From a bacterium (GTDB lineage Bacteria; Krumholzibacteriota; Krumholzibacteriia; Krumholzibacteriales; Krumholzibacteriaceae): 30,435 nucleotides of DNA. The position numbers and the translations under genes are program-made. Of this stretch, positions 24,511-27,376 are shown piece after piece; the stretch's first letter is position 1, and each line of letters opens with the position of its first letter. The notes under the pieces are model-generated. The model was not told where the DNA came from and ran no database searches. It was given only the letters and a program-made list of their open reading frames with translations. The DNA is taken from positions 1-30,435 of the forward strand of contig JAGUZZ010000299.1 in NCBI GenBank assembly GCA_020060525.1. Direction: 5' to 3'.

Positions 24511-26151
24511 CTAGAGAACGAACGAAAAACGGCTCTTGAAATGCCTCAGCTTGAGGTTCCTCCCGTACTCCACGCGGACGGCCGGTATCCGATCGCGGTG
24601 GTCGTAGATGAGCTTGACGGCCTCCGCCGCGGCGAGCAGATCGCGGTCCTCGTAGGCGAGACGCGGAACGGCCGCGCGGACGTTGTTGACGCGCGGCTCC
24701 GGAGGGATCTCTCGGACGCCGTCGAAGGCGCCGAAGGCGTACAGCCCGAGCTCGCAGAATCGGTGCCCCGCGATGAGAAGCAGCGCCGTCAGGGACACTC
24801 CCCGGAGATCCTCGTCGCGCGAGGCGCCGTCGAAGAACCGGTCGATGTCGATGTAGATCGCGTGGCCGCCCGCCGGGTTGATCGTCGGAATGCCGAGCCG
24901 CTGCAGGCGATCCCCGAAACGCTCGACCTGCCTGATGCGAAGATCGAGGTATTCCCGGCGCGTGACCGTTCGAAGCCCCTCCGCGATCGCCCGCAGGTCG
25001 CGCCCGGCGAGGCCGCCGTAGGTCGGATGTCCCTCCGTCATGATCTGGTAATCGGTGAGCTCGTTCGTGAACTTCGGGAAGCGTTTCGTGAACGCGCTCT
25101 CCTCCCGGATGCACAGCGCGCCGCCGATGTTCGCGAGCCCGTCCTTCTTGAAGCTGATGTGAAAACCGTCGGCGTTCTCGAACATCTCGTGCACGATGCT
25201 TTCGATCGACCGGTCGGCGTATCCCGGCTCCCGGCGGCGGATGAACCACGCGTTCTCGGCGAACCGGCAGGCGTCGATGAAAAACGGCACGTCGTGCGAG
25301 CGGGTGATCTCGCGGACGCGCCGGATGTTCTCCATGGATACGGGTTGTCCGCCCCCCGTGTTGTTCGTGACGGTGAGGTACACGACCGGCACGCGTTCGC
25401 GCTCCGAGGCGAGCAGGCTTTCGAGCTCCGCGAGATCCATGTTGCCGCGGAAGGGGAACGACTCGTCGCCGGCCAGGTGCTCCTGACAGGGGAGATTGAG
25501 GGGAACCATGAGCTTGTCCGCGATGTTCCCCTCGGTCGTGTCGAAGTGGGAGTTGCTCGGAATGACGTAAAACGGGGCGTCCCCCGCGACCGGTCCGCGC
25601 ATCGGCCTCATGCGGTGCTCGATGCGCGTTCGGAGCTCGGGCACGAGCCCCCCGGAGAGCTGTTTCGCCTGCGGCGCGCCGGAACGCCGCAGCTCGCGCG
25701 CGAGGACGCTGAAGAAGGCGTTCTCGGCGGCCCGCCCCTGATGGAATATGAAGAGCGGCTCGAGCTCCCCCGTCCGGAGACCCGGCCGCTGACGCCACGT
25801 CGGCCCGAAAGTCCGGGCGATCTGCTCCTTGAGCTCGAAGTACCCCTCGTTCGAGCCGTACGCTTCGTCTCCGAGCAGCATCGCCGCCCACTGCTCCATC
25901 GTCATCGTCCCCGTGCCGGAATCGGAAAGGAGATCGCACCCCGGTATCCGGTCCGCGCGGAAGAGGAAGACGTTGAGCCCCGCTTCCTCGACGAGCACCC
26001 TGCGGCGTTCGTCGAAATCGGCGAGCGAGCACTTCCGGAAGCTCACCGCCGCGTTCCGATAGGGACGCGGACGGAAATAAGCGGCGGGCTCGTGCGGGGG
26101 ATCGAGATGGCTTCGAAAACGGGAAATGAAGAAATCGATGGCATCCTTCAT
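24511..26151 (-). CDS. tnaA: Tryptophanase-like PLP-dependent beta-eliminating lyase (546 aa, with insertions)
   Basis: LLSDSGTG, GDEAYG, HQGRAAE, HFDTT, GGGQPVS, DACRFAEN, SFKKDG (PLP Lys), TYGGLAGRD and LRHF. HFDTT, ELG and LRHF are tryptophanase-type rather than tyrosine phenol-lyase-type. Start overlaps the trpS stop (TGATG). Confidence 0.8.
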   Translation of the reverse strand: MKDAIDFFISRFRSHLDPPHEPAAYFRPRPYRNAAVSFRKCSLADFDERRRVLVEEAGLNVFLFRADRIPGCDLLSDSGTGTMTMEQWAAMLLGDEAYGSNEGYFELKEQIARTFGPTWRQRPGLRTGELEPLFIFHQGRAAENAFFSVLARELRRSGAPQAKQLSGGLVPELRTRIEHRMRPMRGPVAGDAPFYVIPSNSHFDTTEGNIADKLMVPLNLPCQEHLAGDESFPFRGNMDLAELESLLASERERVPVVYLTVTNNTGGGQPVSMENIRRVREITRSHDVPFFIDACRFAENAWFIRRREPGYADRSIESIVHEMFENADGFHISFKKDGLANIGGALCIREESAFTKRFPKFTNELTDYQIMTEGHPTYGGLAGRDLRAIAEGLRTVTRREYLDLRIRQVERFGDRLQRLGIPTINPAGGHAIYIDIDRFFDGASRDEDLRGVSLTALLLIAGHRFCELGLYAFGAFDGVREIPPEPRVNNVRAAVPRLAYEDRDLLAAAEAVKLIYDHRDRIPAVRVEYGRNLKLRHFKSRFSFVL

Positions 26152-27176
26152 CAGATACCGTCCTTCGGCGGAAGGTTCATGGCGTCGCGGACCTCGTCGA
26201 GCGTCGCGCGCGCGGCATCGCGGGCCTTCCCGGCGCCGTCGATGAGTATGTCGCGTATGCGGCCGGGATGGGCCGCGAGATCGCGGCGGCGCTCCCGGAT
26301 CGGGCGGAGCGCCTCGTTCATCCGCTCGGCGAGCCGCTTCTTGCAGTCGACGCAGCCGCGAAGCCCCGCTTCGCATTCGCCCCGGACGAGCGGCTGCTCG
26401 GCCTTGTTGTAGAAACCGTGAAAGGCGTACACGACGCAGCCGTCCGGATGCCCCTTGTCGTTCTTTCGGATCTTCACGGGATCGGTGAACATGATCCTCA
26501 CCCGTTCGGCCGTCGCCGCCTCGTCGTGGGCGAGCGCGATGTAGTTGCCGGAGCTCTTGCTCATCTTTTTATCGGCCGCGTCGATCCCCGGCACCTTCGG
26601 GATCTCGGTGAGGAGCACCTCCGTGATCGGAAACACGTCGCGGCCGAACAGGCTGTTGAACCGCTGCGCGAGGTCGCGCGTCATGTTGACGTGCGCCTCC
26701 TGATCCTTGCCGACGGGGACGAACTCGCCCTTGTAGGCGAGGATGTCGGCCGCCTGGAGCGTCGGGTACCCGAGGAGACCGTAGCTCGGGTGCTCGATCT
26801 TGTAGCCGAGCACCATTTCCTTGTAGGTCGGATTCCGCTCGAGCCACCCGAGCGGCGTGATCATCGAAAAAAGGAGGTGCAGCTCGGCGACCTCCTTCAC
26901 GTGCGACTGGATGAAGATCGCGCACTTCCCGGGATCGAGGCCGGCGGCGACCCAGTCGATCGCCATCTCGACGACGTTCTCCCGGAGCCTCCCGACGTTC
27001 TCGTAGCCGACGGCGTCGCCGCCGCCCGGCGTCGTGAGCGCGTGCCAGTCGACGATGAAGAAGAAGCAGTCGTAGTCGTTCTGGAGGCGCACCCAGTTGT
27101 CGAGGGCGCCGTGGAGATTGCCGAGGTGCATGCTTCCCGTCGGCCGCATGCCGCTCGTTACCCTTCGTATGCCCAT
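26151..27176 (-). CDS. trpS: Tryptophan--tRNA ligase
   Basis: SGMRPTG, HLGN (HIGH motif), VDWHALT, YPTLQAADIL, VPVGKDQ and KMSKS. RBS GGAGG. Confidence 0.97.
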   Translation of the reverse strand: MGIRRVTSGMRPTGSMHLGNLHGALDNWVRLQNDYDCFFFIVDWHALTTPGGGDAVGYENVGRLRENVVEMAIDWVAAGLDPGKCAIFIQSHVKEVAELHLLFSMITPLGWLERNPTYKEMVLGYKIEHPSYGLLGYPTLQAADILAYKGEFVPVGKDQEAHVNMTRDLAQRFNSLFGRDVFPITEVLLTEIPKVPGIDAADKKMSKSSGNYIALAHDEAATAERVRIMFTDPVKIRKNDKGHPDGCVVYAFHGFYNKAEQPLVRGECEAGLRGCVDCKKRLAERMNEALRPIRERRRDLAAHPGRIRDILIDGAGKARDAARATLDEVRDAMNLPPKDGI

Positions 27177-27242
27177 GCGGTCAGCTTCCTCCGTGAGCGG
27201 AACCCCGTCGCGCGGATGCGGCGCCGCGGCAGGAAAGAAAAA

Positions 27243-27315
27243 TAGGGGAGGCAGGACTTGAACCCGCAGCCACCGGTTTTGGAGACCGACGCTCTACCAG
27301 TTGAGCTACTCCCCT
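27243..27315 (-). tRNA. tRNA-Trp (anticodon CCA), CCA end not encoded
   Basis: Minus strand AGGGGAGTAGCTCAACTGGTAGAGCGTCGGTCTCCAAAACCGGTGGCTGCGGGTTCAAGTCCTGCCTCCCCTA folds into a cloverleaf: acceptor AGGGGAG/CTCCCCT, anticodon loop CTCCAAA (anticodon 27282-27280), T-loop TTCAAGT. Confidence 0.97.
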
Positions 27316-27346
27316 GTTGCGACGTATTCAGCGGCCGAACTTCGTG

Positions 27347-27376
27347 AAGATAACAGCAAGGCGAGGCCGAAGTCAA
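27347..27376 (-). promoter_or_regulatory. sigma70-type promoter for tRNA-Trp-trpS-tnaA
   Basis: Minus strand TTGACT-N18-TATCTT with an extended -10 TG, about 30 nt upstream of the tRNA. Confidence 0.6.

What the first reader, a model, noticed from the sequence alone, without database searches (positions are those of the whole stretch)
24511..27376. tRNA-Trp, TrpRS and tryptophanase-like lyase in one apparent transcription unit
One promoter precedes the tRNA-Trp; 66 nt with no terminator lead to trpS, whose stop overlaps the lyase start (TGATG). Coupling a Trp-destroying enzyme to the Trp-charging enzyme is paradoxical. Enteric tnaA is instead controlled by the TnaC leader, which is absent here. 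Tryptophanases are reversible and also make Trp or Trp analogues from indoles plus Ser/Cys. Hypotheses: indole salvage feeding TrpRS, removal of toxic Trp analogues, or a dedicated tRNA/synthetase/enzyme set for a modified Trp.
Basis: partly seen in the sequence, partly recalled or inferred. Interest (0 to 1): 0.78.

Follow-up and report, generated by a model that had tools for sequence, protein, structure and literature searches.

The report
tRNA-Trp, TrpRS and tryptophanase operon
In an uncultured sediment/soil bacterium (Krumholzibacteriota) that cannot make tryptophan, its only tryptophan tRNA, its only tryptophan-charging enzyme and a tryptophan/indole-converting enzyme are wired into one conserved gene unit. 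This suggests, but does not prove, that the enzyme supplies or balances tryptophan for protein synthesis rather than simply burning it.

Summary
On the minus strand lie a σ70-type promoter (27376-27347), tRNA-Trp(CCA) (27315-27243), a 66-nt spacer, trpS (27176-26151) and a 546-aa lyase (26151-24511) whose ATG overlaps the trpS stop (TGATG).

- **Housekeeping pair.** The tRNA and TrpRS are the only ones found in this MAG and in five near-complete relatives, so they are not a dedicated extra set.
- **Lyase.** It keeps every catalytic and indole-binding residue of tryptophan indole-lyase (Tyr98, Asp204, Lys336, Arg492, His537-Phe538; Leu468, not the Arg of tyrosine phenol-lyase). It belongs to a deep-branching "long" subfamily.
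- **Conservation.** The triplet, the promoter and the stop/start overlap recur across all three families of the order while the flanks change. trpS and the lyase also travel together into another phylum-labelled lineage.
- **Auxotrophy.** The order lacks trpA, trpD and chorismate synthase (0/52 genomes each). Sister orders have trpA and an unlinked canonical tryptophanase.
- **Rarity.** Among 80 diverse metagenomic lyase loci, one has trpS upstream.

The enzyme's direction is unresolved. I favour Trp supply by indole salvage matched to charging (about 0.4) over overflow catabolism (about 0.35). This scan found the same triplet before on other DNA (e1-1436765). No held paper describes it.

The parts
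27347..27376 (-). σ70-type promoter: -35 TTGACT, 18-nt spacer with TG, -10 TATCTT
   Evidence: Found by the consensus scan. cTTGACTTt-N17/18-TATnAT stands at the same distance upstream of the tRNA in 24/24 related loci.
27243..27315 (-). tRNA-Trp (anticodon CCA). It has A1-U72 and discriminator A73, and no encoded CCA.
   Evidence: ARAGORN; Rfam RF00005 69.8 bits. It is the only tRNA-Trp in the assembly and in 5 near-complete relatives.
27177..27242 (-). 66-nt spacer. It has a T-run directly after A73 (TTTTTCTTTCC), a GC-rich stretch, then the Shine-Dalgarno GGAGGA at 27187-27192.
   Evidence: Sequence. The T-run after the tRNA and an SD before trpS are conserved in all loci. Spacer length is 31-81 nt and the sequence is otherwise not conserved. 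There is no Rfam match.
26151..27176 (-). trpS, tryptophanyl-tRNA synthetase, 341 aa. It is the T. maritima-like type with a four-Cys [4Fe-4S]-type motif (C247, C268, C275, C278; 26343-26438).
   Evidence: TIGR00233 265 bits, above the 177 cut-off. The best solved relative is 2G36 at E 4e-88, with all four Cys aligned. It is the only copy in the genome and in relatives.
26149..26153 (-). TGATG: the trpS stop overlaps the lyase start by one base
   Evidence: Sequence. T(G/A)ATG occurs in 20 of 24 related loci, 8- or 17-nt overlaps in 3, and a 4-nt gap in 1.
24511..26151 (-). Long-form tryptophan indole-lyase (tryptophanase family), 546 aa. Key residues are Tyr98, Arg140, Phe203-Asp204, Lys335-Lys336 (PLP), Cys466-Glu-Leu468, Arg492 and His537-Phe538.
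   Evidence: PF01212 and PRK13238 are above their cut-offs. The residue map comes from alignments with E. coli TnaA and C. freundii TPL. All these residues are invariant in 25 homologues, except Cys466, which is nearly invariant. The AF2 model (pLDDT 78) best matches 8SL7, a Butyricicoccus tryptophanase.
25567..25701 (-). Clade-specific insertion of about 45 aa (residues 151-195) between the HQGRAAE helix and the FDTT strand. A smaller 13-aa insertion lies at residues 117-129 (25765-25803).
   Evidence: Alignments. The model shows helix 171-184. The solved 569-aa Butyricicoccus enzyme carries extra residues over the same stretch. Insertion length does not track linkage to trpS.

Best explanation
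**Shown**
- This is the organism's sole, housekeeping tRNA-Trp/TrpRS expression unit.
- A tryptophan indole-lyase with an intact active site, from a deep-branching long subfamily, is joined to it by a one-base stop/start overlap.

**Inferred from anatomy and conservation**
- One conserved σ70-type promoter transcribes tRNA, trpS and the lyase.
- The tRNA is cut out of the precursor. It has no encoded CCA and a U-rich trailer, which fits RNase P and RNase Z processing.
- This leaves a bicistronic trpS-lyase mRNA translated in a coupled way, so the lyase is made in proportion to TrpRS.

**Inferred function**
- The whole order lacks the shikimate and tryptophan pathways.
- I infer that the reversible lyase works mainly as the supply step for TrpRS. 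It would make Trp from freely diffusing indole plus Ser or Cys, or from indole plus pyruvate and ammonium.
- Its capacity would be matched to the charging flux. It would run in reverse only when Trp is in surplus.
For: - **Structure and conservation.**. The triplet occurs in all three families of the order with different flanks. The lyase is present in 47/52 genomes and truly lost in only 2.
- **Housekeeping status.** One trpS and one tRNA-Trp in the MAG and in near-complete relatives.
- **Enzyme identity.** The residue signature is YRFDKK-CEL-RHF, against YRFDKK-VEI-RHF in E. coli TnaA and YRFTKK-MER-RFF in TPL-type enzymes. The residues are invariant, Cys466 nearly so. Their roles are documented for P. 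vulgaris TIL (PMC11301627).
- **Auxotrophy.** trpA 0/52, trpD 0/52, aroC 0/52, with 31 genomes at least 90% complete and controls positive. Sister orders have TrpA in 5/5 and an unlinked canonical lyase.
- **Module behaviour.** TrpRS of a lineage labelled Caldifarciminota/WOR-3 that also has trpS-lyase nests with the Krumholzibacteriales TrpRS (99 SH-aLRT; 67% identity, against 34-47% for sister orders). That genome also lacks trpA.
- **Indole salvage in the order.** 7/52 genomes carry a stand-alone TrpB and 5/52 a TrpB2-like gene, all without TrpA.
- **Established knowledge (my own).** Tryptophanase is reversible (Watanabe & Snell 1972) and also makes Trp from indole plus Ser. E. coli trp-deletion strains grow on indole when tryptophanase is constitutive. 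The B. subtilis gltX-cysE-cysS operon couples a supply enzyme to its synthetase.
Against: - There are no expression or enzyme data. The only RNA-labelled run has flat depth over genes, spacers and the divergent neighbour, so it is uninformative.
- As far as I know, every characterised enzyme with this signature is catabolic in vivo. The nearest solved long form was deposited as a gut tryptophanase with an inhibitor bound.
- The 7 genomes with a dedicated stand-alone TrpB still keep the lyase.
- G041 lost the lyase and has no TrpB, so an auxotroph of this order can live without it.
- Unlinked homologues at about 60% identity in Latescibacterota occur in genomes with TrpA.
- The auxotrophy covers all aromatic amino acids, not Trp alone, which fits a peptide-feeding lifestyle with surplus Trp.
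Confidence: 0.4

Rival explanations
1. Overflow catabolism at a fixed ratio. The lyase is an ordinary Trp-degrading tryptophanase yielding indole, pyruvate and NH4+. A peptide-feeding aromatic auxotroph takes in more Trp than it needs. TrpRS (micromolar Km) is served first, and the low-affinity lyase removes the excess. Tying the lyase to the tRNA/aaRS promoter and to trpS translation keeps it from outcompeting charging, and shuts it off together with the translation apparatus during starvation. This would replace TnaC-type Trp sensing.
For: - The active site is Trp-type.
- Characterised relatives are catabolic; 8SL7 and 8SBG are gut tryptophanases.
- Krumholzibacteria are predicted to be fermentative heterotrophs that use peptides (PMC7914226).
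- Genomes with TrpB keep the lyase.
- Prototrophic Latescibacterota carry close unlinked homologues.
- Sister orders also carry a tryptophanase.
Against: - I know of no precedent for a catabolic enzyme translationally coupled to the cognate synthetase.
- Trp is a minor energy source, and synthetase-level expression would give little catabolic flux (inference).
- The trpS-lyase pair is inherited, and apparently transferred, as a module.
- Linkage appears only in lineages without trpA.
Confidence: 0.35
2. Neutral hitch-hiking. The lyase gene landed downstream of trpS and persists by inertia, with no functional relation to Trp charging beyond sharing a promoter.
For: - Only one or two origins of the linkage are needed.
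- Other tRNA genes in this genome also head operons of translation-related genes, namely tRNA-Val-thrS and tRNA(CAT)-tilS. tRNA-led operons are therefore a habit of the lineage.
Against: - The 1-nt overlap and gene order survive divergence to about 63% protein identity while the flanks are reshuffled.
- All three parts concern the same amino acid.
- The pair recurs in a second phylum-labelled lineage.
Confidence: 0.12
3. The lyase acts on another substrate for TrpRS's benefit. One example is cysteine desulfhydrase activity supplying sulfide for the [4Fe-4S]-type cluster of this TrpRS. Another is clearance of toxic Trp analogues before they are charged.
For: - TrpRS carries the four-Cys motif of the T. 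maritima Fe-S enzyme.
- Tryptophanases are known cysteine desulfhydrases and accept Trp analogues (my own knowledge; S-ethyl-Cys and 7-aza-Trp are substrates in PMC11301627).
Against: - The indole-binding Asp204/His537 pair is invariant. That pair matters for Trp but not for S-alkyl-Cys substrates (PMC11301627).
- Two of the five sister-order TrpRS examined also carry the four-Cys motif, and neither is linked to a lyase.
Confidence: 0.06
4. A dedicated orthogonal tRNA/synthetase/enzyme set for a modified tryptophan (one of the first reader's hypotheses).
For: The unusual A73 discriminator on a bacterial-type tRNA-Trp is conserved in all loci.
Against: - No second trpS or tRNA-Trp was found in the MAG or in five near-complete relatives. 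Every weaker tRNA match is another isoacceptor.
- The anticodon is the normal CCA.
- TrpRS has ordinary motifs.
Confidence: 0.02

Closest known systems
E. coli / Proteus vulgaris tnaCAB operon (tryptophanase TnaA, leader peptide TnaC, permease TnaB)
   Same: The enzyme family is the same, and the catalytic and indole-binding residues match: Tyr, Asp, Lys-Lys, Arg and His-Phe.
   Different: - There is no TnaC leader, no permease and no Trp-sensing attenuator (compared with the E. coli locus).
- The gene is translationally coupled to trpS behind a tRNA gene.
- The enzyme is about 28% identical to E. coli TnaA in the structural alignments. It has an N-terminal extension and two insertions, and lies across the deepest split of the family tree.
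- It falls below the TnaA equivalog cut-off, 271 against 826 bits.
Butyricicoccus sp. BIOML-A1 tryptophanase (PDB 8SL7, 569 aa)
   Same: - It is the only solved chain that aligns end to end, residues 46-540 to 48-559. It carries extra residues over the same stretch between the N-terminal core and the FDTT strand.
- It is the best structural match to the model.
- It was deposited as a tryptophanase with an inhibitor bound.
   Different: It is only about 30% identical and the insert sequences are unrelated. It comes from a gut Firmicute, and I know of no linkage to trpS. The paper describing it (PMC10702206) is not held, so I did not verify its kinetics.
B. subtilis gltX-cysE-cysS operon (my own knowledge)
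   Same: An enzyme that supplies an amino acid is co-transcribed with the cognate aminoacyl-tRNA synthetase.
   Different: That operon is controlled by a T-box and contains no tRNA gene. Its enzyme is unambiguously biosynthetic, whereas here the enzyme is reversible and classically catabolic.
E. coli thrU-tyrU-glyT-thrT-tufB operon (my own knowledge)
   Same: tRNA genes and a downstream protein-coding gene of the translation apparatus share one promoter. The tRNAs are cut from the co-transcript.
   Different: Here the tRNA is cognate to the synthetase that follows, and a metabolic enzyme for the same amino acid is attached.
Thermotoga maritima TrpRS with a [4Fe-4S] cluster (PDB 2G36)
   Same: It is the best solved relative of this TrpRS (E 4e-88), and all four cluster cysteines align.
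   Different: The cluster was not demonstrated here. The spacing of the first two Cys is 20 residues rather than 22.
Earlier scan finding e1-1436765 (another Krumholzibacteriota genome)
   Same: It reports the same triplet, tRNA-Trp, TrpRS and a tryptophanase-family lyase, as recurring in relatives.
   Different: This report adds several points that the retrieved summary of that note does not mention:
- order-wide loss of the trp and shikimate pathways;
- proof that the pair is the housekeeping one;
- statistics on the stop/start overlap;
- the residue signature and the deep-clade placement;
- module-level inheritance of trpS plus the lyase.

Membership tests
Tryptophan indole-lyase / tryptophanase (EC 4.1.99.1) | Beta-eliminating lyase fold (PF01212), scoring above NCBIfam's tryptophanase subfamily cut-off | tested here: met
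   PF01212 180 bits; PRK13238 449 bits against a 285 cut-off. The AF2 model matches TIL and TPL structures with probability 1.00.
Tryptophan indole-lyase / tryptophanase (EC 4.1.99.1) | PLP lysine (E. coli K270), general-acid Tyr (Y74), carboxylate-binding Arg (R419) and PLP-N1 Asp in the DACRFAEN motif | tested here: met
   K336, Y98, R492 and D293 are aligned and invariant in 25 homologues.
Tryptophan indole-lyase / tryptophanase (EC 4.1.99.1) | Indole-specific residues: Asp (E. coli D137, P. vulgaris D133), the His-Phe pair (H463/F464), and a hydrophobic residue where TPL has Arg381 | tested here: met
   D204, H537-F538 and L468. Their roles are described in PMC11301627.
Tryptophan indole-lyase / tryptophanase (EC 4.1.99.1) | Scores above the TnaA equivalog models (TIGR02617, NF053783) | tested here: not met
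   271 against 826 bits and 353 against 750 bits, split into two stretches by the insertion. The protein sits in a separate deep clade. It is a member of the family but not of the canonical TnaA orthologue group.
Tryptophan indole-lyase / tryptophanase (EC 4.1.99.1) | Catalyses Trp = indole + pyruvate + NH3 | not testable with these tools
   This needs an enzyme assay.
Tyrosine phenol-lyase (EC 4.1.99.2) | Thr124, Arg381 and Phe448 (C. freundii numbering), which contact the phenol | tested here: not met
   The window has Asp204, Leu468 and His537. TPL-type loci in the same alignment show T, R and F. TIGR02618 scores 290 against 721 bits.
tnaCAB-type regulated operon | TnaC leader peptide and a Rho-dependent attenuator upstream of the lyase, with an adjacent permease | tested here: not met
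   The lyase ATG overlaps the trpS stop, so there is no leader space. The downstream gene is a GAF-PAS histidine kinase in relatives. The E. coli locus is shown for comparison.
Bacterial tryptophanyl-tRNA synthetase (housekeeping) | TIGR00233 above cut-off, class-I HIGH and KMSKS motifs, and sole copy in the genome | tested here: met
   265 against 177 bits. HLGN at residues 17-20 and KMSKS at 204-208. Single copy in the MAG and in five near-complete relatives.
T-box or other known RNA leader controlling trpS | Rfam match between the promoter and trpS | tested here: not met
   Only the tRNA reaches a gathering score in the window. The 31-81-nt spacers are too short for a T-box.
tRNA-mRNA co-transcription unit | A single transcript spanning tRNA, trpS and the lyase | tested here: inconclusive
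   Comparative anatomy supports it. The only RNA-labelled run looks like DNA, with flat depth.

The most novel reading that the evidence does not exclude
TrpRS and the long lyase form a two-enzyme salvage-and-charge module that is inherited, and even transferred between phyla, as a unit. Trp made from environmental indole would be handed directly, perhaps through a physical complex, to TrpRS and its co-transcribed tRNA. A classically catabolic tryptophanase would then be the sole Trp-forming enzyme encoded by most genomes of an aromatic-auxotroph order.
Probability: 0.12. Interest if true: 0.8.

Novelty: new variant of a known kind. Interest (0 to 1): 0.5.

Why it matters
Tryptophanase is textbook catabolism, induced by surplus Trp through TnaC. 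Here an enzyme of that family, with an intact Trp/indole active site, is hard-wired to the only tRNA-Trp and TrpRS of a lineage that cannot make aromatic amino acids. The synthetase-lyase pair also behaves as an evolutionary module.

If the lyase runs towards synthesis, three things would follow:
- It would be a natural case of tryptophanase serving as an anabolic indole-salvage enzyme.
- It would show that environmental indole is a shared nutrient, not only a signal, in sediments and soils.
- Metabolic models that score this gene as "Trp degradation" in uncultured auxotrophs would need changing.

If the lyase is catabolic, the unit is a new, sensor-free way to ration an essential amino acid between charging and breakdown.

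Either outcome can be tested with one recombinant enzyme and one complementation experiment.

Tried and rejected
1. **RNA evidence.** One run labelled RNA holds 96% of the region's words. Its contigs cover genes, spacers and the divergent DUF4434 gene at a flat depth of about 13, so it behaves like DNA. No transcript conclusion was drawn.
2. **Known RNA leaders.** Rfam at gathering threshold finds only the tRNA.
3. **Terminator after the lyase.** The 149-nt region folds no better than shuffles (z -0.44). No consensus terminator lies on the minus strand. The operon's 3' end is therefore not defined.
4. **Insertion as a TrpRS docking surface: rejected.** The trpS-linked L048/L087 enzymes have only about 15 residues there. 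Unlinked Latescibacterota enzymes have 40-55.
5. **Complementarity between lyase loss and TrpB/TrpB2.** Of the two real losses, G023 has a TrpB2-like gene but G041 has none. G010 and G049 simply lack the whole locus, and the G019 contig ends after trpS. This is too weak to use.
6. **Literature.** No held paper links trpS with tnaA or discusses Trp metabolism in Krumholzibacteriota. The paper on the Butyricicoccus enzyme (PMC10702206) is not held.
7. **Context of stand-alone trpB** in G026. It is monocistronic between an aminotransferase gene and unrelated genes, which is not informative.
8. **Second tRNA-Trp.** All weaker matches are Asn, Val, Gly, Thr, Tyr or Arg tRNAs.

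
Full report
**Observation.** The unit lies on the minus strand.
- ARAGORN finds one tRNA in the window, tRNA-Trp(CCA), at 27243-27315. Rfam confirms it.
- Sixty-six nucleotides downstream starts a 341-aa ORF at 27176-26151. It is a tryptophanyl-tRNA synthetase: TIGR00233 scores 265 bits against a cut-off of 177, and the HIGH-type and KMSKS motifs are present.
- Its TGA shares the A with the ATG of a 546-aa ORF at 26151-24511. That ORF is a beta-eliminating lyase: it matches PF01212 and scores 449 bits against NCBIfam subfamily 'tryptophanase', cut-off 285.
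- A TTGACT-18-TATCTT promoter-like site lies at 27376-27347. No terminator-like site lies on this strand between it and the lyase stop.

**Organism.** The window is contig 171 of a 2.30-Mb MAG. The MAG has 368 contigs, 66% G+C and 81% completeness. Record titles of near-identical loci place it in Candidatus Krumholzibacteriota, family Krumholzibacteriaceae (UBP1). Near-identical DNA occurs in soil, groundwater, sediment and hydrocarbon metagenomes.

**The tRNA and synthetase are the housekeeping pair.**
- The MAG has one tRNA-Trp, one trpS and one lyase.
- Five near-complete relatives (1-20 contigs) each have one TrpRS and one tRNA-Trp, both at this locus.
- All weaker tRNA matches are other isoacceptors.
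- This refutes the idea of a dedicated extra set for a modified tryptophan.

**Conservation of the unit.**
- The lyase is found in 47 of 52 genomes of the order.
- Every locus I fetched from its three families carries tRNA-Trp, trpS and the lyase in this order.
- The stop/start overlap T(G/A)ATG occurs in 20 of 24 loci. Overlaps of 8 or 17 nt occur in three, and a 4-nt gap in one.
- A cTTGACTTt-N17/18-TATnAT promoter stands upstream of the tRNA in all 24 loci.
- A T-run follows the A73 discriminator in all 24, and no CCA is encoded.
- The spacer is 31-81 nt and is otherwise unconserved except for the Shine-Dalgarno sequence. At 31 nt there is no room for a separate trpS promoter.
- Flanking genes differ between families: the P5C dehydrogenase and the GAF-PAS kinase are not found beside the unit in the loci examined from family f3. 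The triplet is therefore kept beyond general synteny.
- Only G023 and G041 have really lost the lyase, and both keep tRNA-Trp and trpS. The other three 'absences' are assembly gaps.

**The enzyme.**
- Alignments used E. coli TnaA (read from NC_000913), C. freundii TPL and other solved chains.
- The window protein has Tyr98, Arg140, Phe203-Asp204, Lys335-Lys336, Arg492 and His537-Phe538. It has Cys466-Glu-Leu468 where TnaA has Val-Glu-Ile and TPL has Met-Glu-Arg.
- Across 88 family members the window signature YRFDKK-CEL-RHF is of the Trp type. It is clearly distinct from the TPL type YRFTKK-MER-RFF.
- The Asp/His pair hydrogen-bonds the indole NH and is needed for Trp but not for S-alkyl-cysteine substrates (PMC11301627).
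- All these residues are invariant in 25 homologues of 61-84% identity, except Cys466, which is nearly invariant.
- The protein is about 75 residues longer than canonical TnaA. It has a conserved N-terminal extension, a 13-aa insertion and a 45-aa insertion.
- An AF2 model (pLDDT 78) matches best the 569-aa Butyricicoccus tryptophanase 8SL7. That is the only solved chain that aligns end to end, with extra residues over the same stretch.
- In a quick ML tree the window clade of 19 rows is separated by the deepest, fully supported branch from the clade holding E. coli TnaA, the TPL-type enzymes and the sister orders' tryptophanases.
- The protein is thus a family member with an intact Trp/indole site. 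It is not a canonical TnaA orthologue, and it fails the equivalog cut-offs.

**Metabolic context.**
- In 52 genomes of the order, 31 of them at least 90% complete, I found no TrpA. No TrpD reached the cut-off, and no chorismate synthase was found. All control genomes were positive.
- The order therefore appears unable to make any aromatic amino acid.
- Seven genomes carry a stand-alone canonical TrpB and five a TrpB2-like gene. Without TrpA these can only serve indole salvage, as far as is known.
- Five genomes from sister orders of the same class all have TrpA. Four of the five carry a short canonical tryptophanase, 37-38% identical end to end and 43-46% over the C-terminal two thirds. It is unlinked to trpS, and no tRNA lies near trpS.

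**Rarity and module behaviour.**
- Latescibacterota homologues of the long lyase, about 60% identical, are stand-alone genes.
- Of 80 diverse metagenomic lyase loci, 59 have enough upstream sequence to judge. Only one has trpS upstream.
- That one, together with L048 (labelled WOR-3/Caldifarciminota), belongs to a lineage whose TrpRS is 67% identical to the window's. Sister orders reach 34-47% and Latescibacterota 41-51%.
- In a TrpRS tree this lineage nests with the Krumholzibacteriales enzymes at 99 SH-aLRT. Its genome also lacks trpA.
- trpS and the lyase thus share a history as a pair, possibly including transfer between phyla.

**How it probably works.**
- Shown: the parts and their arrangement, the housekeeping status, the intact Trp/indole site and the auxotrophy.
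- Inferred: one transcript from the conserved promoter; excision of the tRNA; and coupled translation that sets lyase output in proportion to TrpRS.
- The direction of the reversible reaction is not resolved.
- I favour supply, about 0.4: indole plus Ser, Cys or pyruvate/NH4+ gives Trp, which feeds TrpRS. Four points support this:
  - Linkage occurs only in lineages without trpA.
  - The pair behaves as a module.
  - Synthetase-level, ratio-locked expression suits flux matching rather than bulk catabolism.
  - Supply enzymes are known to share operons with cognate synthetases.
- The catabolic 'overflow valve' reading, about 0.35, remains strong for three reasons:
  - To my knowledge, all characterised relatives degrade Trp.
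  - TrpB-bearing genomes keep the lyase.
  - G041 does without either enzyme.
- Neutral hitch-hiking (0.12), another substrate such as cysteine (0.06) and a dedicated orthogonal set (0.02) are less likely.

**Novelty.** All three parts are known kinds, and the arrangement is the new element. I found no paper that describes it. The scan noted the same triplet earlier in another Krumholzibacteriota genome (e1-1436765). It also noted a trpS-tnaA pair 4 nt apart in another genome (e1-986647). Other scan notes report Tyr T-box control of TPL-like lyases. That would be a parallel case of this family being wired for supply, but I did not test it.

Noticed in passing
window 26343-26438 (-), TrpRS residues 247-278: TrpRS carries a C-x20-C-x6-C-x2-C motif. 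It aligns with the four cysteines of the [4Fe-4S] cluster of Thermotoga maritima TrpRS (2G36, the best solved relative). The motif is kept across the order and in two of the five sister-order enzymes examined.
   Followed up: partly
window 27243-27315 (-) and loci L001-L061: tRNA-Trp has A73 with A1-U72, no encoded CCA and a T-run directly after the discriminator in all 24 loci examined. In bacteria G73 is the usual TrpRS identity element. This was also raised by scan note e1-5314420.
   Followed up: partly
G000:C247:3100-4750 (L167) and G000:C98:2700-4900 (L166): Two further tRNA-led units occur in the same genome. A tRNA with anticodon CAT is followed 48 nt later by tilS (lysidine synthetase), so it is probably tRNA-Ile2 with its own modifying enzyme. 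tRNA-Val(GAC) is followed 33 nt later by thrS.
   Followed up: partly
order-wide (52 genomes): No chorismate synthase, TrpA or TrpD was found in any genome of the order. Seven genomes have a stand-alone canonical TrpB and five a TrpB2-like gene. This looks like a whole order of aromatic auxotrophs with scattered indole-salvage genes.
   Followed up: partly
L048/L170 (G059) and L087: A 1.6-Mb genome labelled WOR-3/Caldifarciminota has trpS-lyase with a 4-nt gap and no tRNA upstream. Its TrpRS nests with the Krumholzibacteriales enzymes. This suggests either transfer of the two-gene module between phyla, replacing an essential synthetase, or a mislabelled bin.
   Followed up: partly
run X1: A 2013 library recorded as RNA-Seq covers the whole 4-kb stretch at flat depth, including intergenic DNA and the divergent gene. 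It probably contains DNA or is mislabelled. It may be the sample the window was assembled from.
   Followed up: no
L055 4001-5594 and L173 (G060:C13): In a MAG labelled 'beta proteobacterium', the long lyase matches in two pieces one base apart, at 4001-4633 and 4635-5594. This looks like a frameshift or assembly error. The trpS match in G060 contains an in-frame TAG.
   Followed up: no
window 27434-28477 (+) and 28679-30310 (+): A DUF4434 gene lies divergent from the tRNA promoter, followed by a P5C dehydrogenase gene (TIGR01236, 795 bits). The DUF4434 gene is missing from this position in several relatives, where the P5C dehydrogenase gene sits directly next to the tRNA.
   Followed up: no
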